From Bacilli bacterium (lineage in GTDB: Bacteria > Bacillota_I > Bacilli_A > ML615J-28 > CAG-313), in contig JAFQFT010000013.1 in NCBI GenBank assembly GCA_017398545.1, positions 5,572 through 69,571 of the forward strand: a stretch of DNA of 64,000 bases. The letters are read 5' to 3'. The notes beneath the pieces were generated by a model. The model had not been told where the DNA came from, did not search any database, and saw only the letters and a list, made by a program, of their open reading frames with translations. A program made the translations under genes and the position numbers. Positions 1-18,734 of the stretch are shown piece by piece; position 1 is the stretch's first letter; every line of letters starts with the position of its first letter.

Positions 1-610
1 TCAACTCTTTGTAATCAACATACAAACTTAAAGCATTTTCTTTTGTTAAACCACAATAATCAATTCCCCATAATTCGAATGCTACAGAAGGATCAAATAA
101 TTCATCCATTAACTTAATAAAGTTAGATGTATCCTTATAATTTACTTTAGTTATGCAATGTTTAATAACAATTTTAATACCATAATAATGAATGTTAAGT
201 AAACCATTAATTGATTTATTAAAACTACCTTTACTAAGGTTCTGTGATTCATGTGTTTCTGCACCGCTGCTATGAATAGTTGTTATTATTTGAAAACGAT
301 TTTTGTCAATATGTTTAGAAAGCTCATATGCAAATTTTATGTCGTAAAGTTTCTCAGCATTTGTTAAAATCGTTGTATAAATATTATTTTCTTTAAAGTA
401 ATCCAAAATATCAAAGATTTCATCGTGTAATAGAGGTTCTCCACCACTTAATGTAACATAAATACGCTCATTTTTATCAATGAAAGGTTTAATTTTGGTT
501 TTTATATCATCTAAAGATAACTTTTGTCCTTTAAATGAATTTTTACCACATGGACAACCTAAACACTTTTGATTACAACCATAAATTATTGCAAAATATA
601 AATTTACCAT
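1..610 (-). CDS. Radical SAM protein, partial (3' end lies beyond position 1; first 203 aa visible)
   Basis: I translated the minus strand from the ATG at 610: MVNLYFAIIYGCNQKCLGCPCGK...LSGGEPLLHDE.... It has a CX3CX2C motif (CNQKCLGC) near the N-terminus and a GGEPLL SAM-binding-type motif. The frame stays open to position 1. The ATG sits inside the stop region of the upstream gene (AAATGGTAA). It is absent from the supplied ORF track because it runs off the window. Confidence 0.75.
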   Translation of the reverse strand, partial: MVNLYFAIIYGCNQKCLGCPCGKNSFKGQKLSLDDIKTKIKPFIDKNERIYVTLSGGEPLLHDEIFDILDYFKENNIYTTILTNAEKLYDIKFAYELSKHIDKNRFQIITTIHSSGAETHESQNLSKGSFNKSINGLLNIHYYGIKIVIKHCITKVNYKDTSNFIKLMDELFDPSVAFELWGIDYCGLTKENALSLYVDYKEL

Positions 611-1158
611 TTTATTGCCTCCAAATACACTTGATTATTTATAAAAGACTTTTTGGTCAACGAATAAATGTATAAATCATAATACTCATCGTTATGTTTT
701 CGATAATCTTTCAATGTAGCTTCCTTTATAACACCTGGAAATTGCATTAAAGAAATTGAATTTTGATTATACGAATAAACCTCGAAAAATATTTTATTTA
801 GACTTAGTTTTTCGAATAAATGATTTAGATATAGAACTGCAGCTTCAACAGAGTATATTTTATTACGATATTCTTCACAAATGTAAATAGTTACAAAAGC
901 GTGAGAATCAATATTTCGAATATTATATGCAAATATAAATCCCATTCTCTTGTTTGAATTATTTTCATAGATTACATAAAACGAGCGATAATGACTTTTA
1001 AGCATTTCATTCATTTCTGTTTGAAACTCAAAATATGTTTGTTTACTGTTTTTGTTACTCCATAAATATAAATCATCTAAACAAAATTTTTCATAAATAA
1101 AATGATAGTCATCTCTATCTTTAATATAATTTAAATATAAATGTTTTCCTAAAATCAT
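604..1158 (-). CDS. GNAT-like (RimJ/RimL-type) acyl/acetyltransferase
   Basis: 184-aa ORF with SD AGAGGA 5 nt before the ATG. The C-terminal half (LNKIFFEVYSYNQNSISLMQFPGVIKEATLKDY) resembles the RimJ/RimL GNAT pattern. There is a 1-nt gap to the upstream gene and an overlap with the downstream rSAM gene. Confidence 0.5.
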   Translation of the reverse strand: MILGKHLYLNYIKDRDDYHFIYEKFCLDDLYLWSNKNSKQTYFEFQTEMNEMLKSHYRSFYVIYENNSNKRMGFIFAYNIRNIDSHAFVTIYICEEYRNKIYSVEAAVLYLNHLFEKLSLNKIFFEVYSYNQNSISLMQFPGVIKEATLKDYRKHNDEYYDLYIYSLTKKSFINNQVYLEAIKW

Positions 1159-1159
1159 A

Positions 1160-2512
1160 TTAGTCCTCTATTTTGATTTCACCTAATGATAATATTTCAA
1201 TAACTTTTTTATTAGTTAAAGCATATTCTATTAATTTAGGGTAAAGATATTCATTAATGCTACATTGCGTTTCGTCAATTTCTGTAAATGATTTTTTATA
1301 CGATATTATTGAAGCAGTGCATCCACCACGGCAATAAACATACCAAGGACATTTATCACATTTGAAATCATTTTTTTTCAAAAAGAAAGGATTGCTTTGA
1401 ATTGATTTCTCTAAAATATCAGTCAAATCACCATCTTGAATATTACCTATTTTAACAATTTCATTACCTACTAATTCACAAGGATAGATATTACCATCTC
1501 TGGAAAAAGTAATAAATTTATATCCACCTAAACATCCATTTGAATGACATAATTCACTATTCCATCCCTTAAATAAATTTATGATTCGATCATAAATATT
1601 CATATCTGTAATTGTATAACCTTCTTTATAGAGTTTTAATAAAATATTTATTAATCGTTCATAAAACATTGGAATATCTTTTTCTGTTAATACAGATTCC
1701 ATTGGAAAAACATCTGAATTAGGATGGACGAAATTTAACTTTATTTTTTTAATTTTTAAATCTTTAGCAAACGAAATAATGCTATCTTCTAAATAATCTA
1801 AGGACATCTTTGTAACTACAGAAATTGTTTGGACATTATATCCATTATACTTTTGAAGATTTTTTATCCCCTCAATAACTTTAAAATATGAGTCTTTCCC
1901 ATCAAAATATTTACGATGAATATTATGGATTTTTTCGTTACCATCAATACTTACTGCAACAGAAATTTTTCTATCATGCAACTCTTTAGCTATTTCCTGA
2001 GTAATTAAAGTTCCGTTAGTTTGAATAACAATCTCAGCCTTTATATTATTTTCTTTAAAGAAATCATCCATTTTTAGTATTTCTTTATATGCTAAAAAGG
2101 GCTCTCCACCCCATGGTTGAATCGTGATAGGTCTGTTGCCATTACTTTTTACATAATTTTTTATATAATCTAAAATTGCAAATAATTCATTTTCTTTAAT
2201 AACTGAACCACGTGAAATAAAATCTCTTAAACAATAATAGCATCCTAAATTGCAACAAGTAGAAAAATCAATCATAAAAAAAGAAATTTTTGGTTTTAAA
2301 GATCGAATTTCAAAGCGATCAGTTTTATAAAAAGAATTAAGTAAAAGTTTATATTTTAATTCCTCACAACATTTATCTTCAATTAAATCATCATACAATA
2401 CTTTTTCTAATATTAAACCATTTCCATTTTTTGATAATATAAATACTTTATCACATGATTTTTGTGAATAAATTATATTAAATTTTTCTATTTTATTATT
2501 CAAGAAAACCAC
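1160..2512 (-). CDS. Radical SAM peptide-modifying enzyme with C-terminal SPASM domain
   Basis: CX3CX2C motif (CNLGCYYC), a GGEPF motif, and the SPASM signature CX2CX5CX3C (CDKCPWYVYCRGGC) plus upstream Cys residues (CHSNGC...YPCE). The start is uncertain: GTG at 2512 or TTG at 2503, the latter with better SD spacing (GAAGGTGG-5nt-TTG). Confidence 0.85.
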   Translation of the reverse strand: MVFLNNKIEKFNIIYSQKSCDKVFILSKNGNGLILEKVLYDDLIEDKCCEELKYKLLLNSFYKTDRFEIRSLKPKISFFMIDFSTCCNLGCYYCLRDFISRGSVIKENELFAILDYIKNYVKSNGNRPITIQPWGGEPFLAYKEILKMDDFFKENNIKAEIVIQTNGTLITQEIAKELHDRKISVAVSIDGNEKIHNIHRKYFDGKDSYFKVIEGIKNLQKYNGYNVQTISVVTKMSLDYLEDSIISFAKDLKIKKIKLNFVHPNSDVFPMESVLTEKDIPMFYERLINILLKLYKEGYTITDMNIYDRIINLFKGWNSELCHSNGCLGGYKFITFSRDGNIYPCELVGNEIVKIGNIQDGDLTDILEKSIQSNPFFLKKNDFKCDKCPWYVYCRGGCTASIISYKKSFTEIDETQCSINEYLYPKLIEYALTNKKVIEILSLGEIKIED

Positions 2513-2744
2513 CTTCTTCTAATTTGTTATAAACATCATGTTCAGTTAATTTTTTTATTGTATCAATAGGTGACCCAATTAATAAAGAATTTAATAATAA
2601 ATTCAATTTATATCTATTTCCATTGATAATAAGTTCATTATTGTTTCTACAACATTTCAAAAATAAACTATCATTTTCTAAAGCATAAATCGTTGATGAT
2701 GATAATTTAATAGTATTTAAGTTATTTTTTTTTAGTACAACCAT
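2496..2744 (-). CDS. Small PqqD-like / RRE-type peptide-binding protein (tentative)
   Basis: 82 aa, sitting immediately upstream of the rSAM-SPASM gene and overlapping it by 17 nt. Its size and position are typical of PqqD-family chaperones. Sequence similarity is judged only loosely by eye. Confidence 0.4.
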   Translation of the reverse strand: MVVLKKNNLNTIKLSSSTIYALENDSLFLKCCRNNNELIINGNRYKLNLLLNSLLIGSPIDTIKKLTEHDVYNKLEEGGFLE

Positions 2745-2748
2745 AAGA

Positions 2749-3696
2749 TTACCTATTATCTTTCCATTTTCCTAGTTCGGGATAAAAACATTCCAAACCA
2801 TTCTCGCAATTTAATTTTTTTATTAGTTTAAATTTATTTAAATTAGCAATAAATTCATTTTTCGAATGGCTTTTCGCTGCTAATTCTCTTATTTCAAAAA
2901 TAGTTTTACAAACATATAATATAAAATCGACATCAAATTCTCTTCCCGTAATTTTAATAGAATTAACACCGATTTCTAAAAAATCATAAATAGCACAAAT
3001 TCCACATCCATAATTTAATAAAGAATTAGAATATACATCATGATTTTCATTATACAAATCAACATCCATATTTATATTCCATTTATTACTTAGAGAAAAC
3101 TTACACATTCCCCCGTTTTCAGTATGAAGGCAAAAGCAATTTCCATTTGAAAATCTGCAACCACTTAAAAAAACAAAACACTCAATTTCAATATTTAATT
3201 CAGTTCTAAATTTTTTAATTTCTTCATAAGAAACGTCTCTTGATAAAATTAATCTATCGACTTTATATCTTTTTATTAACGCTTTCACAGCAGAAATATT
3301 GTATAAAGCAAATATGGTTGATAAATAAATTTTAAGATTAAATTTATTAGCAATTTTTAAGATATTCAAATCACTAACAATAAATCCATCTCCACCCTCT
3401 CTTTCAAATTGTGACATTATTTTCTCAATACTTTGCAATTGTTCGTCACTATAAGAATGAGCATTACAAACCAAAAAGACTTCTTTTTTATTATTTTTTA
3501 TAATGTCAATTACTCTTTTTACATTATCAATATTCTTAAATGATGCTTTAGAACTAAATCCTCTCGAATGATAAGATAAAAAATTATCTTTTTGATCTTT
3601 CCAATCATCATTATTAAAGCTTAAATAAAATTCATCAGCATATTTAACTAATTCTTCTATTTTACTATCTTCATTTATTGGACAAAATATTTTCAT
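2749..3696 (-). CDS. Peptidase-U32-family protein (possible Fe-S enzyme rather than a protease)
   Basis: 315 aa. The Cys-rich segment IECFVFLSGCRFSNGNCFCLHTENGGMCKF resembles the U32 family signature as I remember it (E-x-F-x2-G-[SA]-x-C-x4-G-x-C). The N-terminal half is TIM-barrel-like (DGFIVSDLNILKIA). Confidence 0.6.
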   Translation of the reverse strand: MKIFCPINEDSKIEELVKYADEFYLSFNNDDWKDQKDNFLSYHSRGFSSKASFKNIDNVKRVIDIIKNNKKEVFLVCNAHSYSDEQLQSIEKIMSQFEREGGDGFIVSDLNILKIANKFNLKIYLSTIFALYNISAVKALIKRYKVDRLILSRDVSYEEIKKFRTELNIEIECFVFLSGCRFSNGNCFCLHTENGGMCKFSLSNKWNINMDVDLYNENHDVYSNSLLNYGCGICAIYDFLEIGVNSIKITGREFDVDFILYVCKTIFEIRELAAKSHSKNEFIANLNKFKLIKKLNCENGLECFYPELGKWKDNR

Positions 3697-3704
3697 AATA
3701 ACAT

Positions 3705-6035
3705 TTAACCCTCAATATACTTTAATATAATTTCAAAATCATCATTTTTAAGTAAATCAATTACCTTTTTGTCAAGTTTTCCTTGGTAATATAATGCATT
3801 CATATATTTATAAACTTTAATTTGATTATAATTTGTAGTTGAGCAATATTTTAAACATTCAAAGGAACAATTAACATTTTTAAACTTAGAAGCACACTTT
3901 TTATTAATTCCTGAAAATTCACAAATATTTCCACATGCCTCTAAAATATAAGGATAATTAATATATATTTTATTTAAACTTTGTGGTAATATAAAGTGTT
4001 CTGTTATGTGAGGTTCTAAAGTAACACTACGTATATTATGTTCTTCATAATACTTAAGATTTTCAGAACTAAAAACCCCAATACCTTCATTTGTTAGAAA
4101 AATATTTTTTGTTCTAAAATCACGGATTCTTTTGTCAAACAATCTTCCCAAAATAATATTTACTTTTTTAGAATAAAGTTCCATTATTCCATAATCATTA
4201 ACAATTAGATAATCAATTACTTTACGCTCAAGTAATTGATCAATAACTTGTACAAACTTTTGAAAATATTCTTCTCTAACATTTGGCACAATAAAATACG
4301 TTAAAAGATTTTTTTCTTTCGCCGATATATATTTTTTTATAAGTTTTTCTGCATTTATAGCATCAATAAATCTAGAACAAGTGCTTGAACCATAAATAAC
4401 ACCTTTAATATATGAATTATGTGGATTAATTAACTCAATACATAACTTCGAAATATTATCTAATGACATATCAATTACTGTAAATCGATCACTCAAATCA
4501 ACAATAATACCTTTTTTAAACATCAAAGATGTTTCCTTAGTCAAATAATTATTAACTAATTCCACAATATGCTGCACTTTATCCATTTTTTCAAAATCTT
4601 TATCGCTAAATGTAATATTATACTTTTTTTCTATTTCAACAATAATTAAAAAGAAATCCACTGATGTAATATTTAAATCATATTTCAGGTCGGAGTTATA
4701 AAGTACTTCAACATTAATATATTTTTCAATTAAAGTTTTAATTTCAGTAAATAGTTCATTTTTTACATCATTTCTTTGAACCTTGTGTGCATCTGAATAA
4801 ATTAAATCACCATAGATAATTTGAGTTATAAGATTAAAATTAGGAATCATACTTAATTGTTGAACATTTAATCTGCTTATCGAATCAATTTTTAAAAAGA
4901 GCTTATCGTTTTTTAAAAATAATAATGATCCTTTAACTCCATCAAACTCATTTACAACATTTTCAATTTGTTCAGGAAAAACTTTTAACCCATTTGGTAA
5001 AACAATTAATGTATCACTTCGTCCAAGTAACAATATTTTTTTATCATTTGTTAACATTCCTAAATCGTTAGATGAAAATAAAGGTTGAGTTAAAAAGTTA
5101 GGATAGTATCCTTTCATAACATTTTTACCTTCAACCGTAATTTCATTTTCTCTATTAATTGTTATATTTACGCCTTCGATTAACGAAATAACATTTAATT
5201 TACTAACATTATCAATTAAAGTTATCCCTATGCAGCCTGCTGTTTCTGTAGAACCATAACCGTTAAATAGTTGGAGATTTTTCTTTAAAACTTTATTCGC
5301 TAGTCGTTTAGAAATTTGAGCTCCTCCTACAAGAATTGTTTTCAAATTTAAGTTTTCAATACCATATTTTTCTAAAAAAATAAATAACTTTTCTAATAAT
5401 AACGGTGTTAAATTAATACATGTGGGATTGGCAATAGTAAAAGAATCAAACATTCTATTTACATCATTATTTACATATACTTTTGAACCACCAAAAATTG
5501 GTAAAAAATAATCAGCTATTAAGCCGAATACATGATGAATTGGAAGAATGCTTAAATATGAACATTTTTGATTACTTTTTAAAATTTTCCAACCCCCATT
5601 AACTGCAGCATACAAATTATTATTTGAAAGCATAACACCTTTTTTTTCTAAAGTTGTACCGGAAGTAAAAATAATTGTTGAAACGTTATCTTCATCTAAT
5701 TCTTTTTCTAACTTAAATTCAGTTTTTTCAAAACATTCTTGTAAAATGGAATTAAACTTTATATCATTAATTATTTCAACACAATTAATTAAATTATTTT
5801 GATCAGCAAAAACTGCTATATTATCAGTAAATATAATCGATAAGTATGCAGCAAAAAAATTTATCTTATCCTTAATTATTATGTTAAAATAACATCTATT
5901 ATATTTAGAAAAGTAATTGGATATTTTACTTACTAATGAAAAGAATTCACCATATGAATAATTAATATTTTCAGAACTAAAAAGAATTAGATTTTTATTA
6001 TTGTTAAAAGAATCAATTAAAGCATTCTTTAACAT
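3705..6035 (-). CDS. Tri-domain fusion: AMP-forming adenylation enzyme, acyl/peptidyl carrier domain and U32-like domain
   Basis: Adenylation motifs are TSGTTLEKKG (A3), NGYGSTETAG (A5) and SNDLG...GRSDTLIVLPNGLKVFPEQIE (A7/A8). A carrier-like helix with a Ser follows (LNITSVDFFLIIVEIEKKYNITF). The C-terminal ~270 aa are U32-like (IDYLIVNDYGIMELY...; Cys-rich EACGNICEF...CSFECLKYC). The ATG overlaps the precursor stop (TAATG). Confidence 0.7.
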   Translation of the reverse strand: MLKNALIDSFNNNKNLILFSSENINYSYGEFFSLVSKISNYFSKYNRCYFNIIIKDKINFFAAYLSIIFTDNIAVFADQNNLINCVEIINDIKFNSILQECFEKTEFKLEKELDEDNVSTIIFTSGTTLEKKGVMLSNNNLYAAVNGGWKILKSNQKCSYLSILPIHHVFGLIADYFLPIFGGSKVYVNNDVNRMFDSFTIANPTCINLTPLLLEKLFIFLEKYGIENLNLKTILVGGAQISKRLANKVLKKNLQLFNGYGSTETAGCIGITLIDNVSKLNVISLIEGVNITINRENEITVEGKNVMKGYYPNFLTQPLFSSNDLGMLTNDKKILLLGRSDTLIVLPNGLKVFPEQIENVVNEFDGVKGSLLFLKNDKLFLKIDSISRLNVQQLSMIPNFNLITQIIYGDLIYSDAHKVQRNDVKNELFTEIKTLIEKYINVEVLYNSDLKYDLNITSVDFFLIIVEIEKKYNITFSDKDFEKMDKVQHIVELVNNYLTKETSLMFKKGIIVDLSDRFTVIDMSLDNISKLCIELINPHNSYIKGVIYGSSTCSRFIDAINAEKLIKKYISAKEKNLLTYFIVPNVREEYFQKFVQVIDQLLERKVIDYLIVNDYGIMELYSKKVNIILGRLFDKRIRDFRTKNIFLTNEGIGVFSSENLKYYEEHNIRSVTLEPHITEHFILPQSLNKIYINYPYILEACGNICEFSGINKKCASKFKNVNCSFECLKYCSTTNYNQIKVYKYMNALYYQGKLDKKVIDLLKNDDFEIILKYIEG

Positions 6036-6325
6036 TATTTGCTACTTCCACCTGCACTCCAACTTGTACTATTAGACCAGTATGTCCCACCTGCACTCCA
6101 TTTAGTACTATTAGACCAGTATGTCCCACCTGCACTCCATTTAGTACTATTTGACCAATATGTTCCACCTGCACTCCACGGAGTACTATTTGACCAATAT
6201 GTTCCACCTGCGCTCCATCTTGTGCTATTTGACCAATATGAACTTTGATCATTATTATTTGAAATAGATAAATCGTTACCAAAACATAATACACAATTTA
6301 ATTTTTTAGAATAAACCTTAATCAT
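6035..6325 (-). CDS. Candidate RiPP precursor peptide: ~28-aa leader plus five 13-aa repeats (T/S)YWSNST-x-WSAGG
   Basis: Strong SD (AAGGAGTG, 7 nt before the ATG) and a consensus-like promoter upstream. It is the first gene of the rSAM operon. Sequence: MIKVYSKKLNCVLCFGNDLSISNNNDQS-SYWSNSTRWSAGG-TYWSNSTPWSAGG-TYWSNSTKWSAGG-TYWSNSTKWSAGG-TYWSNSTSWSAGG-SSK. Nucleotide differences between repeats are almost all synonymous in this frame. Confidence 0.75.
   Translation of the reverse strand: MIKVYSKKLNCVLCFGNDLSISNNNDQSSYWSNSTRWSAGGTYWSNSTPWSAGGTYWSNSTKWSAGGTYWSNSTKWSAGGTYWSNSTSWSAGGSSK
6048..6242 (-). repeat. Five tandem 39-bp repeats (unit starts 6048, 6087, 6126, 6165, 6204) encoding the peptide core units
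   Basis: Direct reading of the plus strand gives ccacctgc(a/g)ctcca-nnn-(a/t)gt(a/g)ctat(t/a)(a/t)gacca(g/a)tatg... repeated five times with an exact 39-bp period. Confidence 0.95.
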
Positions 6326-6351
6326 AATTTCACTCCTTTTATATTTTTATT

Positions 6352-6380
6352 ATTTTATCACAATGAAAATAATTAGTCAA
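6352..6380 (-). promoter_or_regulatory. Sigma-A-type promoter of the peptide operon
   Basis: The minus strand reads TTGACT (6380-6375), a 17-nt spacer, then TAAAAT (6357-6352). It lies ~27 nt upstream of the precursor ATG region, ahead of SD AAGGAGTG. Confidence 0.6.
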
Positions 6381-6485
6381 GAAAAATTGTAAAATTTTGT
6401 GGTATTTATGTAAGATATTTTTACAATATTTTATTATTTTTCTCTTTATGATTAAAAAAGTCAAAAATTATTTATATATAAAAAA

Positions 6486-6515
6486 ACCTCTCTTATAGGA
6501 TACTATTAGAGGGGT
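6486..6515. terminator. Bidirectional rho-independent terminator
   Basis: 13-bp stem (one mismatch, one G-U pair) with loop GATA, flanked by an A-run (6481-6486) and a T-run (6515-6520). It lies just downstream of the acyltransferase gene on the minus strand. Confidence 0.7.
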
Positions 6516-6597
6516 TTTTTCTTAAGATATTTTATTAAATCATAAATTAATACAAATAAAAAAATTTAATAAATAATATAATGTTTAATCATAGTTT

Positions 6598-7515
6598 TTA
6601 GTAATTAATAGTAGTTAACTTTTCTTGTTTTTCTATATCGTTTTTAACTTGTTTAAAAATAAATCTCAATAACAATGTCAACAACGATAAACCTAATATA
6701 ATTACAAAAATTACATTTCGATTCGATAAATTAAAAAATTTAATAAATAATCTTGGAACAAGTTGATATGCATAAAGTCCAAAACTAAGTGAACCCAAAA
6801 AATTAAATATCGAAAAATTAAATTTCAATAAAAATGTGAAATAAATTAATGATGGATATAAAATGATGAAAGCAAGCTGTATTAATAGTTTATCACCTGA
6901 ATACATCAAAAATAAAATTGTTAAAGAAAATAAAACAAAAACTAATACCCAATTTAAAATTTTATTAATTTTTAGTTTTGGTATATAACCTATTAATACT
7001 CCTAATGGTAACGCTGCTGCACCTCTAACAAACCCAACATGTTCACACCCAAGATTTCTTAAAACAGTAAATATTAATACCCAACATATTAAAAACATAA
7101 TAAAGTGTTTTTCTCTTTTAAAAAATTTTTTTAAAATAATAAGAATTAAACATGTATAAATCATTTGTTTGACATACCATAAGTAACTCCATAAATTAAG
7201 AGTAAGTTCGTCATTCAAAATAAGACTAATTATACAATAAATTATATTAAAAGATATTCCTACAAATAAAGGTAGGCCTAATTTTAATACTTTCTTTTTA
7301 AAGAATAAAATAATTGCTTCTCTAAAATTCATATCATGTACTTTTTCTAAAAATCCGATAAATAAATAACCAGTTAAAATAAAGAAAAATTCAACACAGA
7401 TAAAACCAGATGAAAAGTAAGGACCACCATATATAAACATTGAATGACTTTTTACAACGATTAAAGATAATATAAATCTATATAATTCAATTAAACTATT
7501 TTTCTTCATACTCAA
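6598..7515 (-). CDS. Integral membrane acyltransferase (acyltransferase_3 / OafA-like family)
   Basis: 305 aa and polytopic. The N-terminal LIELYRFILSLIVVKSHS resembles the conserved start of acyltransferase-3 proteins (R...H motif). Confidence 0.5.
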   Translation of the reverse strand: MSMKKNSLIELYRFILSLIVVKSHSMFIYGGPYFSSGFICVEFFFILTGYLFIGFLEKVHDMNFREAIILFFKKKVLKLGLPLFVGISFNIIYCIISLILNDELTLNLWSYLWYVKQMIYTCLILIILKKFFKREKHFIMFLICWVLIFTVLRNLGCEHVGFVRGAAALPLGVLIGYIPKLKINKILNWVLVFVLFSLTILFLMYSGDKLLIQLAFIILYPSLIYFTFLLKFNFSIFNFLGSLSFGLYAYQLVPRLFIKFFNLSNRNVIFVIILGLSLLTLLLRFIFKQVKNDIEKQEKLTTINY

Positions 7516-7521
7516 ATTTTA

Positions 7522-10500
7522 TTAACGCATACCTTCTATTAACATTAGAATTTCTTCACGTGTTATATATCCTTTACCTACGACAATTGATAAATATCGG
7601 CCATTTAATGCAATAAATTCTTCATATGAAACATAGTCTTGCCATTCTTCATATGTATATAATCCATATTGTGCTATATCTGATTCCATTTTCTCTTTAT
7701 CATATTTATAATCATCGCCAAATTCAAAATATGTTAAAAAGCCAGGAATATCTTCAATTGTTAATGTTAAAAAGCCTTCTACAATAACATTATCGTTGCA
7801 AGCACTTCTTAGAGAATAACACGAACTCCATTTGTATTCTGCAATTCCTGAAACCAATTCTACAGTTTCTATTGTTCCTTCTTCTCCTACCACAGCAAAA
7901 TGATGTCCTAAATATTCAACGTAATTTTCATGATTGATAAAAACATATTTATTAAGCGTGGCATCAAAGAAACCATGTTCAGTTACAACATTTAAAGACT
8001 TTCCATTAGAAAATTCAAGCGTAATTACGTTATATAAACCTTCTCCGTGATTCCAAAATAATGAAATAGGCATTGCTTCTATAGTTCCTGTAAATGCATT
8101 CCACGAAAGAACTAAATCACCAGGTTTCAAACTATCAAGTCTTGCATAAGATCCGTCATCAAGAGCAACAAGTGTATCACCAGTAAAACAGCCATTAGTA
8201 GACCAAGTAACAGTATAAGTTATAGTTTGTTTAGTTATATTATCAGTTATTTTTAACCAAGCATTTCCTGTTTTATCATCTTCCTCTTTATAAACTCTTA
8301 AAAACTCACCGTCATATGTCGCTTTTGCTCCTGAATCTGAACCACATTCATATTTATACGAACCAGAACCACCAGATACAGTTACCATTCTTTTTTCTAC
8401 TTCACTTATACTTGAGAAATCATCATCTTCGTAGTTAGTTGTACTATAACCTAAAGGGTTATACCAAGCACTATTAATCACTTGATCAAATTCAGTAACT
8501 TTTGCTACATAAATTTTACTTTCACTTAGTAATTGATCACCACAAGACCAACCTTTAAACGTATAATCATTATTTGGATCATTACTACTCTTATAAGTTG
8601 CTGAATATTCATAAGTTATTATGCAATCATTACAACTTATCGAATTTGCTTTAACAAGTTGAATTGTTGCATTTCCATAAACGCTTCCTGAATAGATAGT
8701 CATTTTACCAGAACCTATAAAATTAAGCTTAGATTCAGCTCCAGATAAATTTATAATATTACCACAGGTAACGGATGGAGAAATTGAACTTTCACCTAAA
8801 ACATTAATAGTTAAATTTATTCCATTAGTATTATATAAAGATATTGCTTCACTTTCATTAGTTATAAAATTAAAGTTATCAAACGTTAATGTAAGATTTT
8901 GTGAACTTGTATAACTACATAAATACATTCTAAAATTTATAAATGTTCTATCTTTATTACCGATAAATATGACTTCTTCTGAATACCCAGCTACTATATC
9001 TATATTGTTATACCTATTGTTTACTACACTTCTATTAGTGTGTTTTGTTAAATCTATTTCTGATTCATGACGCCAATCTATTATTGTTTTTTTATAAAGT
9101 GGATTCCAAGGAGTGCTATCAATAGTATTATATATCATATACGAATCAGTCTTAAGAGTGTTTTCAACAATTGTCCCAGTTGTGACATATTGACTAATTT
9201 CACGTGTGTTTATTTCCCAAATCGCATATAAAGTAATATTCTCTTTAGAAGTTAATCCAGATATATCATCAACATTTGTAAAACAAATTTCACTATCTGG
9301 GTTTAAAGACCAACCTTTAAAGTTCATTCCTTCAATGAAAAATGCATTATTAGTTAAAGTATATGACTTAAAATAATCACAATCTTGCATAGGAGAAATA
9401 TTTCCACCCTTTGAGCCTATATAATTAATTGTATAAGCAAAACTTGGATAGTTTGCTTCAAAATAGATATCATATAAACTTTTAACGTCAAATGAAATAT
9501 TTTCAATTACTTTTTCAAACTTTATATCAAAATACATAAATGAAACTTTAACCTCTGTTACACAACTTTTATTATTACAATTTAAATTAAAAAGTACTGT
9601 ATTATTTCCATTAGCATCAACTAAATTATGAACATCACCATATTCACTATTAATGCTAAATACTAGTGAAAAATCGTGTAAATTATATAAGCTATTTAAC
9701 GTTAAATATTCATCGTTTTCAGCTATCAATTTCCAAATTTCATCAATAGTATAAATTTTATTATTTTCAATGTAATCTAATTTAAAACTAATCTCATCAA
9801 TTTGATTCATTATTAATTGCATTGAATTATTTTTACTATCAATATCATTAGTAAATTTTGTATTCTCACTACAAATTATATCTATATTCTCACAAAAATC
9901 TATTATAAATTTCATATTATCATATGAATAAAAATTTTTAGAATTTTGTAAATATAGAGTCTTTTTCACTGTTGATGTGTTGAAACCTAATTCAGTTAAA
10001 AAGTTTTCGCTCAATAAAGAACCTTGTAAATTTACATTTTGTAACATTAGTTTATTTAATCCTATACAAAGAGAATCTTTTCGTAAATCCATATTTCTAA
10101 GATTCAAATTTTTTAAGCTATTTAATGAAGAAACATTTAAAGAACTTAAGTTAACTTTATCTAATTTTAACGTACTTAAATTGTTTAAACTACTTAATAC
10201 AATATTTTTTACTGTACTATTAATAACTTCTATACTATCAACATTCGAATTCTTGACTAAAATTGAATCAGTATCAATAGAGTTTAGTTTTATATTTTCT
10301 AGTTTATCACCTGAAGTATTACAATCAATAATAGATAAATCTTTAAAATTATATTTAGTGATTTCAAGCCAACCAATTGTACTATTTTCTAATTTTATGG
10401 TATTAAAATCATTAAAATTAATAAGTGACACATCTTTCAATGAAGTAGTTCCTTTAAAAGACATTGAAGTTATCAAATTATTAATATTTTCGTATAATTG

Positions 10501-13500
10501 ACTTTCAAATGCCCCTGTTCCAACTTTAAGTGTCGTTAAAGCTTTTGTTCCATCTAATGTTAATGTGTCCATAATCGGATAATTTACATATAATTCTTTC
10601 ATTGATTCAAGATTTTTGATAGCATCATTATTTTCTTTATTTAAAACGTTTAGTTTTACAATTCTTAATGAATTTTCACCACTAATATTAAGTTTATAAT
10701 TCAAAGCATTAACTGTTAAATTTACTAATTTCTTATTACTAGTTAAACTTGTATTTGATTCTCCATCTATAATTAAACTTTCAATTGAAGTGTTGCTTAA
10801 ACTTAAATTCTTAATTTGTGAATTAATAATTAATTTTTTGCAACCTAAAGTATTATTTAACACAAGCTCTTCCATATCATCTGAAATATTAAGTTCATTA
10901 AATAAAGTAATACCATCCAAAGTCATTTTCTTAATATTTTCTAATGAAATATCAACATTAATATTATTACCACTACCATATATTTTTAGTTCATCAATTG
11001 ATTCCACACCAAAAGTTGATAGATTTTCTAAGCACGATAAATTTTTAATTATTAAAGACTTTAGTGTTGTAGTGCCAACAAGATTAATTACACTTATACT
11101 CTTATTCCCACCTTCTTCAAGATATGCCTCAATTCTTACATTTTCTAAAGGATTGTTACATAATTGAATATCTTTTACTGTAGAAGGTAATGGTTTATAT
11201 ACTCCATTTTCATCATAATAAGAAATAAAATTATTAATATTATTATTATTTAATATTATTGTTTCTAATCCATTCATCTTTTGAACTAGCATTCCAATTA
11301 TTGCATCATATAATGAATATTTAGTATTAGTTTCTTCATCTAAAAATTTACTATTTACATCTAATGTAATACCAATATTTTCTAAATTCAATTTTTTAAT
11401 TATTGAAGCATTAACACTTAATTTGTCTATAAATTTGTATAAAATTTCTTCACTACTTATTGTACTTTGTTCTTTTTTATGAACCTCAAATTTTAGTTCA
11501 CTGATTTCACAATTATTTAAAGTAATAGGATTAAATAGAATTTCTTCATTTATTGTAATCGTAACTTTTATATTTCCATCATTTATAACATGCACATTTT
11601 CAAATGTTATAGTTGTAAGTTTTTCTAATGCTGGAATTTCTAAATCACTAAATTCGATATTTTTCAATATTAAAGTTTTTAAAGATTGTAATCCATTTAA
11701 TTTTAGTTCTCTTAAACCTCCATTTTCTCCTATAATTTCAACAGAGGCTAAGTATATTGAATCTGTAAGGTTAATAGTTTCAAGATTAAATAAATTAGTA
11801 TTGTTAAATTTAATTTCTGAAAATTTATTTCCACTAATATCTAACGTAGTAATACTTTTATTTAACTTTAAAATATTTTCTAAGAATTCGATGTGTTCTG
11901 ATTCATTATATAGATTATTTAAACCATTGAATGGTAGTGATAACGTTTTATTTATTTTAGTATTAGAATAATTAAAGTTTTCTTTAGTTTTAAATATAGT
12001 AGCAACAGGGTTATATTTATCATCAGTTTCAAGTTTTTCAATAATTAAATCATCAATATTACAATTTGTTAAATTAAATACTTTTAAGGCAGGACATGAA
12101 GATAAATTTAACTTACCTATCATACATTCATCAATTAATAAACTATTTGCATCATTATCAAATGAATTTTTAATTGTTAAATTATTAAAATCACATTTTT
12201 TAATACTTATATTATTAATTAATACATTATCAATACTTAATAAATTATTTAAGAATGAAGTATTTATTATTTCAAGATTTTTAATATTAGGAAAATTATT
12301 TAAATCAAGTGAAACATTAACTGCATTTTTCAATAATAATGTATTAACATTTGAATACTTAGAACCAAGTATCGATTTAATTGCATTACTACTAACATTA
12401 TTTTCATTAAGAAGTTCAATTTTAATTGTTTCTAATAAATCGCAATTGTCTAAGATCATTTCTTGTAAATTTAAATATTTGTCAGTAAAAATAAATTCAA
12501 CAATAGTATTTCCAGTTAAATCAATAGTCTTTTCAATATTAAATTTGTCTAATACTTTTGTCTCAGAAATATCACAGTTTTTTAATGTTAGATAATCTAC
12601 ATCAATATTATTAATTCTATCATACCAAGAGTTTTGATTAATACCATTAAAACTTAAAGTCATAACTTTGCTTGGAAAAACAAAACTATTTAAATCTATC
12701 GATTTTAATGTTGATGAAGAAATTGATAACTCTTTAAACTCTTCTTTTTGACTATAATCTCCAATTATAGTATCAATATTAGTATCATTTAAAGAAAGCT
12801 TATTTAATTTTTCAAATGAACTTAAATCTAAAATATTATCTACAAATGTAGTATTTGAAGCTTGAAGCGATTTTAATGTAGGTCTTGCATTTGATTCATC
12901 ATTCATAAGATCAAAATTTGTTAAATCATTAATAATTAATTCATTAATTCTAAATATATCTGTTGATAATTTTGTAACATCAGTACCTGAAATATTTAAA
13001 CTGTTAATATTAATGATTTGAAAACTATATTCTATATCATTAATCATTCCTTTAAATTCACTATTAATAATTTCATCACTTAAATTTGTGTTGGTAAAGT
13101 TAAATCTTTCAGTTGAAGTTCCATTGTAATATATTTTTAGAGATTGAAAATCAACACCTACTGCATTTATATCAATATTACTTCCTCTAATTAGTTCAAA
13201 TATTTTTGTATGATTTGTAACATTGATTATACAATTTCCTACATCATATATTACAAGAGAATTACTTGGAATAATAACTTCAGTTTGATTTTTATCATTA
13301 TAAAATGCTCTACTTGAACTATTATCGAAATTCACAGAATTTATAATCGAACTGCTATATACTCCACCATCAATTATAATGTTACTAGAATCAATATCCA
13401 AATAACTTAAATTAAATTTACTATTTTCAGCATTATCAAATACTGAAATATTTAAGTCAAGATTCCCTACGTTAATATTCTCTCTATATGAAGAAGTTAT

Positions 13501-15594: not shown

Positions 15595-15608
15595 AATTGA
15601 TACCTACT

Positions 15609-18600: not shown

Positions 18601-18734
18601 GTATATACTATTGAATTTTCATCTACTTCTTTTATTTTATTTCTTGAACAGCCACTAACAAAACATAAAGCCATTCCTAAAACAAAAAATACTCCAATAA
18701 ATTTAAATATATTATTAATGTTTGTTTTTTTCAT
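15609..18734 (-). CDS. Lipoprotein (1041 aa) built from ~10 FN3/Ig-like repeats
   Basis: Signal peptide plus lipobox (LCFVSGC|SR). A recurring signature appears, (I/V)xW(D/N)xVxxAxxYx(V/I)xxNG, e.g. IKWDDVKNAEGYEVSING, VTWDEVPGANAYKLRVNG, ITWDLVKNAYKYEVTING. Confidence 0.75.
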   Translation of the reverse strand: MKKTNINNIFKFIGVFFVLGMALCFVSGCSRNKIKEVDENSIVYTGESIKWDDVKNAEGYEVSINGDVYKDTHAVSYTYKNGGNFSFSIKAYKYNAKGEKIYSEAVTVSFTDLGSVTNIKIEDGVVTWDEVPGANAYKLRVNGTELPDTYSVREYSGFNIGKNTIEIRAINVDNSRAYSVWTAPLQFELLDVPTNIKFDAENKIITWDLVKNAYKYEVTINGVEKTTVVNNSYQYEPGKKDFTVSVKAVGDHLNYVFDSDNSESKEFVFLPQVENLTMVDGVLVWNGSEKATGYKIKIDNDLQSTILDKPQYTNIVPGESYSISILQVSDKATYYSEWSEPVFISICVAPQIKYEDGVIKWDGISNASGYKVSLSLNGEDINVPNLSNQNVSYFNEFAQSGIYKVKVATLADEEKGYFGSKYSNEIEIIRLEKPSTGKVFDINTQINETFINFDTVLYAKNYRVRINGTESKEVAGSPFYFKDSKYYTDLTAESTIKVEIFAVGDGQSYSTDKVILDSLAGYEFTITKVATPTELSIENSTIKWDVIPHSTGYIVDINGKVYYPTTNIFELPEGLSSGEHDVTVRALGNGSSYISSNKSKVLTFDKLATPTGLEIVNGVLKWDEVYGAEKYDIKVGEYTTQVVTNSFTIEDQYISTNGTAIYVRALGNNSTKVDSGMSSTDVVIRLKKVNGLSIVEDSTSLASSKLVWNPVQAGEGVRVSYRIKVGTSTIETVTGTSYDVNNLVSHFVDPTKSYAVTVQAIGNEKTYFAGEISDPLNIQKLSTPNVVIKDKNVISWEGVIGATKYAVYLNSELVYSGIEPECTLNVTQDAVLKVIALGDLGVNTINSTPYEQLITVTPQEKPEIAIESVNGDLVTIKVLNKYHEDTIFEFIGGVERVSTSEYTATIKLNAGITTSITVVAHGGLFNDSINKYMLDSVPSTAKDVTLLSNPSINDFDVSISNNTYILRYSSVAKAVAYELEFEFILSDGTTQTLFVERHTSTTYVIADMPENAIGFRLKLRALGNGSSIISAVNPVEYSWDK

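What the first reader, a model, noticed from the sequence alone, without database searches (positions are those of the whole stretch)
6035..6325. Multi-core precursor candidate: five 13-aa Trp/Tyr-rich units with synonymous-only drift except at one hypervariable codon
Seen in the sequence: after a ~28-aa leader (MIKVYSKKLNCVLCFGNDLSISNNNDQS) the peptide is (S/T)YWSNST-X-WSAGG repeated five times, then SSK. That gives 10 Trp and 5 Tyr in 65 residues. I compared the five 39-bp DNA units codon by codon. All differences are synonymous in this frame (TAC/TAT, TCT/TCA, AGT/AGC, ACT/ACA, GGA/GGG), with two exceptions. The first is the first residue of unit 1 (TCA Ser versus ACA Thr). The second is the single X codon, which reads AGA, CCG, AAA, AAA, AGT (R, P, K, K, S); the change from AAA to CCG alters all three bases. 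This pattern indicates selection for this reading frame, against the two other open frames in the same repeat. It also suggests deliberate diversification at one position. Inference: each unit may be a separate core released as a 13-mer or smaller. W-S-N, W-S-A and Y-W-S fit the aromatic-X-X three-residue cyclophane logic of triceptide-type rSAM enzymes. The W/N/S/K composition recalls the darobactin core WNWSKSF.
Basis: partly seen in the sequence, partly recalled or inferred. Interest (0 to 1): 0.88.

Follow-up and report, generated by a model that had tools for sequence, protein, structure and literature searches.

The report
Trp-repeat peptide precursor, paired radical-SAM cluster
The repeat is a real, conserved gene for a tryptophan-rich peptide that heads an operon of peptide-modifying enzymes, and it belongs to a rare, apparently undescribed family of modified peptides found mainly in gut-metagenome bacteria.

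Summary
ORF 6035-6325 (minus strand) encodes a 28-aa leader, five 13-aa units (S/T)YWSNSTxWSAGG and the tail SSK. Within the array, all differences outside the X codon and one S/T codon are synonymous.

Cross-genome evidence is much stronger. Relatives in genomes of 31-49% GC keep YWSNSTxW while synonymous sites are saturated and serine codon families switch. The other frames are not conserved.

The gene heads an operon:
- precursor
- AMP-ligase/carrier/unknown-domain fusion
- U32 Fe-S protein
- 82-aa protein with a predicted leader-binding (RRE) fold
- radical SAM/SPASM enzyme
- GNAT
- an HxsC-like second radical SAM enzyme

The SPASM enzyme defines a discrete family of about 40 clusters. It nearly always sits with the second radical SAM and a precursor that has a conserved (V/I)(F/Y)S(E/K)KLG leader and a core of W-x-N motifs (Asn at W+2 in 127 of 191 cases).

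I infer a triceptide-like, multiply cross-linked peptide, further tailored and probably acylated. No enzyme reaches the cut-off of any curated family, so this is a new variant, not a member. Release of five separate 13-mers, deliberate hypervariation at X and a darobactin link are not supported.

The parts
6352..6380 (-). Promoter-like site: TTGACT, 17-nt spacer, TG-TAAAAT, about 27 nt upstream of the start codon
   Evidence: 10 of 12 matches with an extended -10 TG. The count of such sites in this AT-rich stretch is not above shuffles, so this is only suggestive.
6333..6338 (-). Shine-Dalgarno AAGGAG, 7 nt before the ATG at 6325
   Evidence: Read directly from the sequence.
6035..6325 (-). 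Precursor peptide gene (96 aa)
   Evidence: The gene was called on the source contig (L015). Exactly this protein and identical DNA occur on 4 contigs from different samples. Homologues: P0001, P0059, P0061, P0063 and unannotated ORFs in L012 and L017-L091.
6242..6325 (-). Leader region (residues 1-28). The family motif VYSKKLN is at residues 4-10 (nt 6296-6316).
   Evidence: The leader motif (V/I)(F/Y)S(E/K)K(L/I/M)(G/N) lies near the N-terminus in 37 of 39 precursors of the family. The leader/core boundary is not determined.
6047..6241 (-). Five 39-bp units encoding (S/T)YWSNSTxWSAGG. Each unit has two Trp-x-x motifs (W-S-N and W-S-A), one Tyr and an N-S-T triplet.
6035..6046 (-). C-terminal tail SSK plus the stop codon. 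The TAA overlaps the ATG of the next gene (TAATG).
   Evidence: A ...S/G-K C-terminus is found in 15 precursors. All 14 on long enough contigs have a GNAT in the cluster, and AMP-ligase genes occur only with this tail type.
3705..6035 (-). 776-aa fusion protein. About residues 1-400: AMP-binding (acyl/aryl-activating) domain. Residues 432-493: carrier-protein-like region. Residues 497-776: Cys-containing domain of no known family, always encoded directly before the U32 gene.
   Evidence: PF00501 at E 4.5e-32 and PP-binding at E 0.0059, below its cut-off. The best NCBIfam hit is menE-like, below cut-off. The domains are separate genes in L004 (442 aa AMP-binding, 74 aa, 598 aa) and L012, which also has a PPTase. 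HHalign of the C-terminal domain against U32 gives only probability 46%. The AF2 model failed.
2749..3696 (-). U32-family protein (315 aa) with invariant Cys residues C180, C187, C198, C231, C234, C297 and C303
   Evidence: PF01136 at E 7e-30. The nearest named relatives, UbiU and TrhP, score below their cut-offs. Invariant Cys residues come from an alignment of 8 orthologues.
2496..2744 (-). 82-aa stand-alone RiPP recognition element (leader-binding protein). It overlaps the start of the SPASM gene.
   Evidence: It has no Pfam or NCBIfam hit. The AF2 model has pLDDT 85 and a beta3-alpha3 topology. The top Foldseek PDB matches are all RREs: TbiB1 5v1v (TM 0.62), ThcOx, PbtF RRE 8t19, lasso B1 6jx3 and SuiB. 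A homologous small gene sits upstream of the SPASM gene in most loci.
1160..2512 (-). Radical SAM/SPASM peptide maturase (450 aa from the GTG start; 447 aa as called in public data)
   Evidence: PF04055 and PF13186. CxxxCxxC at C87/C91/C94 and eight further invariant Cys residues. It defines a discrete family: about 40 clusters at 241-1010 bits, then a gap to 120 bits. No NCBIfam cut-off is reached.
604..1158 (-). GNAT acyltransferase (184 aa)
   Evidence: PF13302 at E 3.5e-8. Orthologues occur in L004 and L012 and in every GK-tail cluster on a long enough contig.
1..610 (-). First 203 codons of a 308-aa second radical SAM enzyme (HxsC-like, CxxxCxxC at C12/C16/C19). The gene is cut by the start of the window.
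   Evidence: HxsC (TIGR03977) is by far the best family hit: 110 bits, with the next at 65 and a cut-off of 268. It is 25% identical to Klebsiella HxsC. This enzyme is paired with the SPASM enzyme in nearly all loci.

Best explanation
ORF 6035-6325 is the precursor peptide of an uncharacterised family of radical-SAM-modified ribosomal peptides (RiPPs).

Shown:
- The gene is real and under purifying selection in this frame.
- It is the first gene of an operon whose core module recurs next to W-rich precursors in dozens of metagenomic loci. That module is an 82-aa protein with a predicted RRE fold, a SPASM radical SAM enzyme and an HxsC-like radical SAM enzyme.
- All these precursors share an N-terminal leader motif, (V/I)(F/Y)S(E/K)KLG, and cores built from W-x-N motifs.

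Inferred mechanism:
1. The RRE protein binds the leader motif and presents the core to the radical SAM enzymes.
2. The SPASM enzyme abstracts a side-chain hydrogen from the residue two positions after each Trp (Asn in W-S-N, Ala in W-S-A). It couples that carbon to the indole ring, giving up to ten small three-residue cyclophane rings along one peptide. This is triceptide-like chemistry.
3. The HxsC-like enzyme adds a second, unknown radical modification.
4. The AMP-ligase loads an acid onto the fused carrier domain, and the GNAT transfers it to an amine of the peptide. The conserved C-terminal Lys is the best candidate acceptor.
5. The U32 Fe-S protein, with the unknown domain fused to the carrier, performs an oxygen-independent tailoring step. 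This is either hydroxylation of the per-unit Tyr or modification of the carrier-bound acyl group.

The product is most likely one long poly-cyclic peptide, not five separate 13-mers.
For: Coding and selection:
- Window and L012 (GC 26% vs 49%) share 46 of 55 core residues while synonymous sites are saturated (pS about 1).
- Ser codons switch between the TCN and AGY families at the same positions.
- The other frames differ or carry stops.
- A profile search of 1.84 billion proteins finds only same-architecture relatives.

Context:
- Syntenic clusters are found for P0001 (L003-L010), L012 and L097.
- SPASM plus second radical SAM plus small protein occur in nearly all loci.
- 46 of 80 metagenome loci carry an ORF with the leader motif and a W-rich tail.
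- The leader motif is present in 37 of 39 precursors.
- The small protein has an RRE fold.

Chemistry by analogy:
- Asn is at W+2 in 127 of 191 cases.
- Trp-to-Asn/Asp C-beta cross-links by OscB and XncB, and His-Ala-Ala by HaaB, are established (PMC11002830; PMC11499958).
- The enzyme has all SPASM cysteines.

Tailoring:
- The ...GK tail goes with a GNAT in 14 of 15 cases, and AMP-ligase occurs only with this tail.
- GNAT-catalysed Lys acylation of RiPPs has a precedent in the selidamides (PMC8784127).
- U32 is found only with precursors that have a Tyr in every unit.

Operon:
- SD sequence, TAATG stop/start overlap and overlapping RRE/SPASM genes.
Against: - No chemical data exist for any member.
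- The SPASM enzyme is no closer to triceptide synthases than to other SPASM enzymes: GrrM/OscB 105, YhhB 111 and AmcB 77 bits, against anSME 129, PapB 129, DynA 128 and HxsB 116 bits.
- The universal second radical SAM has no counterpart in triceptide pathways.
- Its nearest relative system, HXS, is reported to install an undefined +8 Da change, not a -2 Da cross-link (PMC13128918).
- Many relatives end in Trp, which cannot be residue 1 of a W-x-x motif.
- GNATs also occur with CFI-box-fused precursors that lack the terminal Lys, so the acyl acceptor is not fixed.
- No exporter and no clear protease is conserved in this cluster type.
- The U32-Tyr link rests on few, phylogenetically related loci, and L017 is an exception.
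Confidence: 0.6

Rival explanations
1. Multi-core precursor. After cross-linking, a protease cuts at every unit boundary (G-G | T-Y-W) and releases five 12-13-residue bicyclic peptides that differ only at X. The U32 'peptidase' would be the cutter.
For: - The units are near-identical and directly tandem.
- Unit number varies among homologues, from 3 to 5.
- U32 genes occur only where every unit carries a Tyr, which could be a cleavage determinant.
- A precedent exists for uniform cleavage of a repeat-motif radical SAM precursor by a dedicated S9 protease, WprP2 (PMC12957482).
Against: - No conserved recognition or spacer sequence flanks the units.
- The closest named relatives of this U32 protein are Fe-S hydroxylases (UbiU, TrhP), and it keeps a conserved Cys set.
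- Clusters without U32 have equally repetitive precursors (L018-L023).
- A single conserved C-terminal tail tracks the acylation genes.
- Related precursors have irregular spacing or are fused to folded domains.
Confidence: 0.15
2. HXS-like effector. The paired radical SAM module works as in the His-Xaa-Ser antiphage system. It installs a non-cyclophane modification and processes the peptide into a cell-envelope-associated effector, for defence or competition, rather than a diffusible natural product.
For: - The second radical SAM's best match is HxsC.
- HxsB is among the top hits of the SPASM enzyme.
- The gene order small protein, SPASM, radical SAM, repeat substrate in L022, L047, L054 and L061 equals HxsD-B-C-A.
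- Both substrates carry aromatic-X-polar triplet repeats.
- Some relatives fuse the W-x-N array to a CFI-box-CTERM domain or a membrane segment.
- The clusters often sit beside mobile-element genes.
- There is no exporter in the cluster.
Against: - Identity to HxsB and HxsC is only 24-25%, and scores are far below the cut-offs.
- The small protein has an RRE fold and no similarity to HxsD.
- The window peptide has a RiPP-type leader, no signal peptide and no peptidoglycan-binding domain, unlike HxsA.
- There is no PADLOC match beyond generic viperin-like radical SAM similarity.
Confidence: 0.15
3. The peptide is translated but is not the substrate of the neighbouring enzymes, for example an unmodified Trp-rich secreted or antimicrobial peptide.
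For: No direct evidence of modification exists. Trp-rich peptides can be active unmodified (general knowledge).
Against: There is strict co-occurrence of this leader plus W-rich peptide type with the enzyme family across very different genomes. A protein with a predicted RRE fold is encoded in the operon. The stop/start overlap suggests translational coupling with the next gene.
Confidence: 0.03
4. A non-coding tandem repeat, or a gene read in another frame or on the other strand (ORFs 6013-6294 minus strand and 6039-6248 plus strand).
For: Three frames are open across the repeat in the window.
Against: Only the YWSNST frame is conserved in L004, L012, P0059, P0061 and P0063. The alternative frames have stops in L004 and unrelated sequences in L012. 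Synonymous-only drift occurs only in this frame. An SD sequence and ATG are present. There is no Rfam match.
Confidence: 0.01

Closest known systems
Triceptides: three-residue cyclophane RiPPs made by SPASM radical SAM enzymes such as XncB, OscB/GrrM, MscB/FxsB, YhhB, HaaB and ChlB
   Same: The core is built of aromatic-X-X triplets, predominantly W-x-N, the very motif OscB and XncB cross-link (Trp C7 or C6 to Asn C-beta). Several motifs occur per precursor. The composition is Gly/Ser/Asn-rich and repetitive, like the Gly-rich-repeat (Grr/Osc) precursors. The maturase has a full SPASM domain. It probably works like these.
   Different: The maturase does not reach the cut-off of any curated triceptide synthase model: 77-111 bits against 310-445. 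It is not closer to them than to anSME, PapB, DynA or HxsB. There is an obligatory second, HxsC-like radical SAM enzyme, a separate RRE protein and a distinct conserved leader. U32, GNAT and AMP-ligase/carrier tailoring genes are present. The hosts are mostly gut-metagenome Bacillota.
HXS (His-Xaa-Ser) system HxsABCD, a paired radical SAM antiphage system
   Same: Both pair a SPASM radical SAM with a shorter radical SAM, and HxsC is the best match for the latter. A small protein is encoded just upstream. The substrate carries tandem aromatic-X-polar triplets. Several relatives have the same gene order. Both are often on mobile DNA.
   Different: Identity is 24-25% and all curated cut-offs are missed. 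The small protein is RRE-like, not HxsD-like. The substrate is a 96-aa leader-core peptide rich in Trp, not a 211-aa secreted protein with a peptidoglycan-binding domain. HXS is 99.7% Pseudomonadota.
WprA/WprB, with the WprP2 protease
   Same: A radical SAM enzyme cross-links Trp in several identical three-residue motifs (WPR) of one precursor. An associated protease cleaves uniformly. This is the best precedent for the multi-core reading.
   Different: The motif differs (W-P-R, Trp C5 to Arg C-gamma) and so does the enzyme family (a StrB/WgkB-related network). A dedicated S9 protease is present there and absent here.
Darobactin and dynobactin (DarE, DynA)
   Same: Both have a Trp-containing core modified by a SPASM radical SAM. 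DynA is the best NCBIfam hit across this family.
   Different: Those have single 7-10-residue cores with fused or two-ring topology. DynA scores 128 bits against 450 and DarE 70 against 650. There is no W-x-W-x-K core, and the hosts are Gram-negative.
Selidamides: GNAT-acylated RiPPs
   Same: A GNAT is encoded in a RiPP cluster and a Lys side chain is available as acceptor.
   Different: Here the acyl donor would come from a dedicated AMP-ligase/carrier fusion. The precursor and core chemistry are unrelated, and acylation is inferred only from gene co-occurrence.

Membership tests
Triceptides (3-CyFE radical SAM RiPPs) | The core contains aromatic(1)-X(2)-X(3) motifs. | tested here: met
   There are ten W-x-x motifs in the window peptide. 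Family-wide, W+2 is Asn in 127 of 191 cases, followed by Asp, Ala, His, Lys, Arg and Gln.
Triceptides (3-CyFE radical SAM RiPPs) | The maturase is a radical SAM enzyme with a SPASM domain. | tested here: met
   PF04055 and PF13186. CxxxCxxC plus eight further invariant Cys residues in 34 homologues.
Triceptides (3-CyFE radical SAM RiPPs) | The maturase belongs to a curated cyclophane-synthase family (GrrM/OscB TIGR04261, YhhB NF041707, FxsB TIGR04269, AmcB NF041718). | tested here: not met
   105 bits against 310, 111 against 445 and 77 against 425. FxsB reaches only E 1.6e-22. All 34 family members are below the cut-offs.
Triceptides (3-CyFE radical SAM RiPPs) | An aromatic-carbon to C-beta cross-link (-2 Da per ring) is demonstrated. 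| not testable with these tools
   This needs co-expression, MS/MS and NMR.
HXS system (HxsABCD) | HxsB-type SPASM radical SAM (TIGR03978) | tested here: not met
   116 bits against a cut-off of 370. It is 24% identical to Klebsiella HxsB.
HXS system (HxsABCD) | HxsC-type second radical SAM (TIGR03977) | tested here: not met
   It is the best hit but scores 110 bits against a cut-off of 268. Identity is 25%. 329 of 351 plasmid records matched were Klebsiella, and most listed hits are annotated hxsC.
HXS system (HxsABCD) | HxsD small protein (TIGR03976) | tested here: not met
   None of 30 small proteins hit it. HHalign probability is 0.6%. The fold is RRE-like.
HXS system (HxsABCD) | HxsA: a secreted protein with His-Xaa-Ser repeats and a peptidoglycan-binding domain | tested here: not met
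   The window peptide has Trp-based repeats, no signal peptide and no extra domain.
HXS system (HxsABCD) | Gene order: small protein, SPASM radical SAM, second radical SAM, repeat substrate | tested here: inconclusive
   This order is found in relatives L022, L047, L054 and L061. It is rearranged in the window: precursor first, and a GNAT between the two radical SAM genes.
Darobactin/dynobactin | DarE or DynA maturase, and a W-x-W-x-K type single core | tested here: not met
   DarE scores 70 bits against 650 and DynA 128 against 450. The core is a tandem array without W-x-W.
RRE-dependent RiPP pathway (general) | A PqqD-like recognition element, and a conserved leader motif in the precursor | tested here: met
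   AF2 pLDDT 85, beta3-alpha3; the top Foldseek hits are TbiB1, ThcOx RRE, PbtF RRE, lasso B1 and SuiB. The leader motif is in 37 of 39 precursors. Sequence HMMs for PqqD do not hit, and binding itself is not tested.
Multi-core RiPP precursors (separately released repeats) | Each core copy is flanked by conserved cleavage/recognition sequences, and a dedicated protease is in the cluster. | tested here: inconclusive
   The units abut directly with no separate spacer. The only 'peptidase' is a U32 protein whose named relatives are hydroxylases. Cleavage cannot be excluded without experiment.
GNAT-acylated RiPPs (selidamide-type) | A GNAT maturase plus an amine acceptor (Lys/Orn) in the core | tested here: inconclusive
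   GNAT, AMP-ligase and carrier genes are present. The C-terminal Lys co-occurs with GNAT in 14 of 15 cases. GNATs also accompany CFI-box-fused precursors that have no terminal Lys. Chemistry is untested.

The most novel reading that the evidence does not exclude
A RiPP family of gut anaerobes with three new features together:
- An RRE-guided pair of radical SAM enzymes (SPASM plus HxsC-like) installs a modification not yet described, on up to ten W-x-N sites of one peptide. It would either go beyond the simple triceptide C-C bond or be the Trp counterpart of the unexplained HXS modification.
- A U32 Fe-S enzyme of the UbiU/TrhP type carries out the first oxygen-independent aromatic hydroxylation seen in peptide maturation.
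- A dedicated ligase/carrier/GNAT trio acylates the conserved C-terminal lysine.
Probability: 0.2. Interest if true: 0.85.

Novelty: new variant of a known kind. Interest (0 to 1): 0.62.

Why it matters
If the inference holds, this is an undescribed branch of radical-SAM peptide natural products from uncultured gut Bacillota.

- One 96-residue precursor would carry up to ten Trp-based macrocycles.
- The family has a defined leader motif and a dedicated RRE, which makes it directly minable and expressible.
- It links two fields that have been separate: triceptide natural products and the paired radical SAM HXS defence system. The chemistry of HXS is still unresolved, so solving one would inform the other.
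- The recurrent U32 protein is a lead for anaerobic, O2-independent hydroxylation in peptide biosynthesis. No precedent for this turned up in the searchable literature.
- Carrier-dependent acylation would add a ribosomal lipopeptide route in anaerobes.

Tried and rejected
- Pfam, NCBIfam and PADLOC scans of the precursor gave nothing.
- A word-indexed search with the precursor found only one homologue. The profile search added four.
- The genome-contig scan with the SPASM enzyme returned only two distant archaeal SPASM genes, which were not used.
- tblastn of the SPASM enzyme against plasmids and phages gave no match at 1e-30.
- The small protein gave no PqqD or HxsD hit by HMM.
- For the C-terminal domain of the 776-aa protein, phmmer against PDB found nothing and Pfam found nothing on six homologues. 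HHalign against U32 gave only 46% probability. The single-sequence AF2 model was unusable, with pLDDT 43. The 'second U32 subunit' idea therefore remains unproven.
- My first BLAST-based GNAT census missed divergent GNATs next to CFI-box-fused precursors. It was redone with iterated HMMs, and this weakened the 'GNAT targets the terminal Lys' argument.
- Literature searches for U32 in RiPP clusters, for Trp-rich precursors and for HxsC relatives found no description of this family. The library lacks most subscription journals, so absence is not proof.
- There is no Rfam element in 1-9000.
- No strain variation in the repeat could be assessed, because all public copies are identical.

Full report
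**1. The observation.**
The minus-strand ORF 6035-6325 encodes 96 residues: MIKVYSKKLNCVLCFGNDLSISNNNDQS, then five units (S/T)YWSNSTxWSAGG, then SSK. Tandem Repeats Finder gives a 39-bp period, 4.9 copies, 90% matches and no indels, at 6048-6240.

- Of the 39 columns, 10 vary.
- Six are third-codon positions and all are synonymous in this frame.
- One is the Ser/Thr first base of unit 1.
- Three make up the X codon (AGA, CCG, AAA, AAA, AGT).
- In every other frame most variable codons change the amino acid.
- Within-array pS is 0.53 against pN 0.05.

An AAGGAG Shine-Dalgarno sequence lies 7 nt before the ATG, and a promoter-like TTGACT-17-TGnTAAAAT lies just upstream. The stop codon overlaps the next gene's ATG as TAATG.

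**2. The gene is real and conserved.**
A word-indexed search of 5.8 billion proteins found one homologue, P0001 (72 aa, three YWSNSTKWTQG units). A profile search of 1.84 billion representatives added P0059, P0060, P0061 and P0063. Mining the DNA next to homologues of the neighbouring radical SAM enzyme revealed many unannotated relatives. One example is L012 4751-5029, in a 49% GC contig, with five units SYWSNST(S/P)WSRG plus GGSK.

Between the window (26% GC), L012 and L004:
- The peptide motif is retained; window and L012 share 46 of 55 core residues.
- Synonymous sites are saturated (pS about 1).
- The three Ser positions use different codon families (TCN versus AGY) in different genomes.
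- The alternative frames carry stops (L004) or encode unrelated sequence (L012).

This excludes a non-coding repeat and the overlapping ORFs. The exact 96-aa protein and identical DNA occur on four contigs from different samples. The array is therefore stable, but strain-level variation cannot be judged.

**3. The operon.**
All genes are on the minus strand and tightly packed.

| Gene | Coordinates | Description |
|---|---|---|
| Precursor | 6035-6325 | 96-aa peptide |
| 776-aa fusion | 3705-6035 | AMP-binding domain, a weak carrier-protein region, and a C-terminal Cys-containing domain of no known family |
| U32 protein | 2749-3696 | U32-family protein |
| 82-aa protein | 2496-2744 | Small protein, no family hit |
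| SPASM enzyme | 1160-2512 | Radical SAM/SPASM enzyme |
| GNAT | 604-1158 | Acyltransferase |
| Second radical SAM | 1-610 | 308 aa, cut by the window edge; seen in full on the source contig L015, where an ISL3 transposase follows |

The source is annotated as a 'MAG: Bacilli bacterium'.

**4. A discrete enzyme family with a characteristic precursor.**
The SPASM enzyme has about 40 relatives (90% clusters) scoring 241-1010 bits, followed by a sharp drop to 120 bits. The CxxxCxxC motif and eight further Cys residues are invariant. A metagenome scan returned 80 loci, many from records named as human gut metagenomes.

- In nearly all loci long enough to judge, the SPASM gene is paired with the shorter radical SAM and preceded by a small gene.
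- In 46 of the 80 loci I find an ORF with a shared N-terminal motif and a Trp-rich C-terminal part.
- The leader motif (V/I)(F/Y)S(E/K)K(L/I/M)(G/N) is present in 37 of 39 collected precursors.
- The cores are made of Ser, Trp, Gly and Asn (69% of residues).
- The residue two positions after Trp is Asn in 127 of 191 cases, then Asp, Ala, His, Lys, Arg and Gln.
- The closer the enzyme is to the window's, the more the precursor resembles YWSNST...GK.

**5. The small protein is a leader-binding element.**
It hits no Pfam or NCBIfam model. An AlphaFold2 model has pLDDT 85, with two of five models agreeing, and a three-strand, three-helix topology. Its best PDB matches are all RiPP recognition elements: TbiB1 with bound leader (TM 0.62), ThcOx, PbtF RRE, lasso-peptide B1, SuiB, LynD/TruD and MccB. 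Together with the conserved leader motif, this is the classic RiPP substrate-recognition arrangement. Binding itself is inferred, not shown.

**6. What the radical SAM enzymes probably do.**
W-x-N is a motif on which known triceptide synthases form a bond between the indole ring and the C-beta of the third residue. OscB links Trp C7 to Asn/Asp, and XncB links Trp C6 to Arg/Asn. Ala as third residue is known from HaaB, which acts on His-Ala-Ala (PMC11002830; PMC11499958). An independent survey also called Aro-Xaa-Asn the hallmark of strained cyclophane RiPPs (PMC9062424).

I therefore infer that each W-S-N and W-S-A triplet becomes a small cyclophane, up to ten per peptide. This is analogy, not proof.
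- The enzyme reaches no curated cut-off.
- It is equidistant from anSME (129 bits), PapB (129), DynA (128), HxsB (116), YhhB (111) and GrrM/OscB (105).
- Its nearest solved structures are anSME, CteB and ChlB.

**7. Relation to the HXS system.**
The second radical SAM matches HxsC far better than anything else: 110 bits, with the next hit at 65 and the cut-off at 268. A tblastn against plasmids matched 351 records, 329 of them from Klebsiella, and most of the listed hits are annotated hxsC. I retrieved a Klebsiella hxsDBCA locus and compared it directly.

- SPASM enzyme against HxsB: 24% identity.
- Second radical SAM against HxsC: 25% identity, with a similar C-terminal CxxC...C motif.
- Small protein against HxsD: no similarity.
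- HxsA is a 211-aa secreted protein with HRS repeats and a peptidoglycan-binding domain.

HXS was recently shown to be an antiphage system whose enzymes process HxsA and add an undefined +8 Da modification. Its usual gene order is D-B-C-A (PMC13128918). The same order occurs in relatives L022, L047, L054 and L061. The present family is thus a distant cousin in enzyme pairing, not a member.

**8. Tailoring genes.**
Fifteen precursors end in ...S/G-K. Fourteen of them have a GNAT in the cluster; the fifteenth, L054, is on a 3.3-kb contig cut right after the precursor. AMP-ligase genes occur only with this tail type.
- In L004 and L012 the AMP-ligase, a 74-79-aa carrier-sized protein and the GNAT are separate genes. 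L012 adds a phosphopantetheinyl transferase.
- GNAT-catalysed Lys acylation of RiPPs is known from the selidamides (PMC8784127).
- I infer acylation, with the terminal Lys as best candidate. GNATs also accompany CFI-box-fused precursors without that Lys, so the acceptor is open.

U32 genes occur only in clusters whose precursors have a Tyr in every unit: the window, L004, L012, L047 and L061. P0063 (L097) also has U32 beside a Tyr-per-unit precursor.
- They are always preceded by the unknown Cys-containing domain.
- The U32 protein's nearest named relatives are UbiU and TrhP. From established knowledge of those enzymes, they are Fe-S-dependent, O2-independent hydroxylases.
- Seven Cys residues are invariant among eight orthologues.
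- One possibility is hydroxylation of Tyr or Trp. Another, suggested by the fusion of the partner domain to the ligase-carrier, is modification of the carrier-bound acyl group. Proteolysis is a third. None is tested.

**9. One product or five?**
- The units abut with no spacer or recognition sequence.
- No dedicated protease or exporter is conserved in this cluster type.
- One C-terminal tail per precursor tracks the tailoring genes.
- Relatives have irregular W spacing of 3-10 residues, only three Trp, or fusion to a folded domain or a hydrophobic (probably membrane) C-terminal segment.

I therefore favour one poly-cyclic peptide. The multi-core idea retains some weight because of the WprP2 precedent (PMC12957482) and the U32-Tyr association.

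**10. The X position.**
Across homologues X is K, R, H, S, N or P. It is a tolerant position, not demonstrably diversified. It is Pro at unit 2 in both the window and L012, which argues against free hypervariation. No diversity-generating element was seen among the cluster genes.

**11. Novelty.**
No curated model covers the precursor, the RRE or either enzyme at cut-off. No paper in the searchable library describes this leader/core family or a U32 protein in a RiPP cluster. That library is incomplete. I rate this a new variant of a known kind (radical SAM RiPPs with triceptide-like logic), of above-average interest.

Noticed in passing
L039 9237-9875; L057 from 9211 (213 aa); P0060; L082 from about 8869 (171 aa): In some relatives the same leader and W-x-N array is not a free peptide. 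It is fused to a C-terminal CFI-box-CTERM domain (NF041770, 37.7-43 bits, cut-off 40) or, in L082, to a hydrophobic membrane-like segment. This hints at a cell-envelope role for part of the family.
   Followed up: partly
window 6047-6241 and homologues (L004, L012, L017-L025, P0059, P0061): The triplet after the first Trp motif is N-S-T or N-T-T, the form of an N-glycosylation sequon. It is conserved across the GK-tail subfamily, and no glycosyltransferase is in the window cluster. Its meaning is unknown.
   Followed up: no
window unit 2 (CCG, 6178-6180) and L012 unit 2 (CCC): The X position of the second unit is Pro in both arrays, although each array looks homogenised within its own genome. 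CCG is also a GC-rich codon in a 26% GC genome. I have no explanation.
   Followed up: no
L016, the same locus from another sample (matches window 1-5594): A single indel relative to the window splits the 776-aa ligase/carrier fusion gene into 395-aa and 194-aa ORFs. This is either an assembly error or a natural inactivation.
   Followed up: partly
L003 5062-6276; L017 5953-7128; L018-L025: An HD-domain protein (PF01966, E 7.8e-9 in L017) accompanies the GNAT in L004, L017, L018, L020, L021, L023 and L025, with an AMP-ligase too wherever the contig is long enough. It is absent from the window.
   Followed up: partly
L015 13019-14161; L003 1-4339; L013 87-1917 and 11147-13299; L012 15698-16314; L099 41-724: The clusters frequently lie beside transposase, recombinase, integrase, ArdC or ParAB genes, which suggests horizontal mobility of the system.
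   Followed up: no
L028, L035, L038, L062: A subtype has two SPASM/radical SAM pairs and a Cys-containing precursor, ...AWESWMNNGWNNWGAICN. L064 and L079 each carry two precursor genes.
   Followed up: no
window 7522-25920: There are three giant ORFs in a row, on the minus strand: 2690 aa (leucine-rich-repeat-like by eye, with weak Flg_new and C-terminal Hint domain hits on record), 1041 aa and 2401 aa. An Acyl_transf_3 membrane protein lies at 6598-7515. None is conserved next to the cluster in other genomes.
   Followed up: no
L101 (Streptococcus equinus plasmid CP020439.2, 109455-120366): An unrelated paired arrangement: radical SAM plus radical SAM/SPASM behind a MutR-type regulator, with ABC transporter genes. 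The first radical SAM is a distant (26%) match to the HxsC-like enzyme.
   Followed up: no
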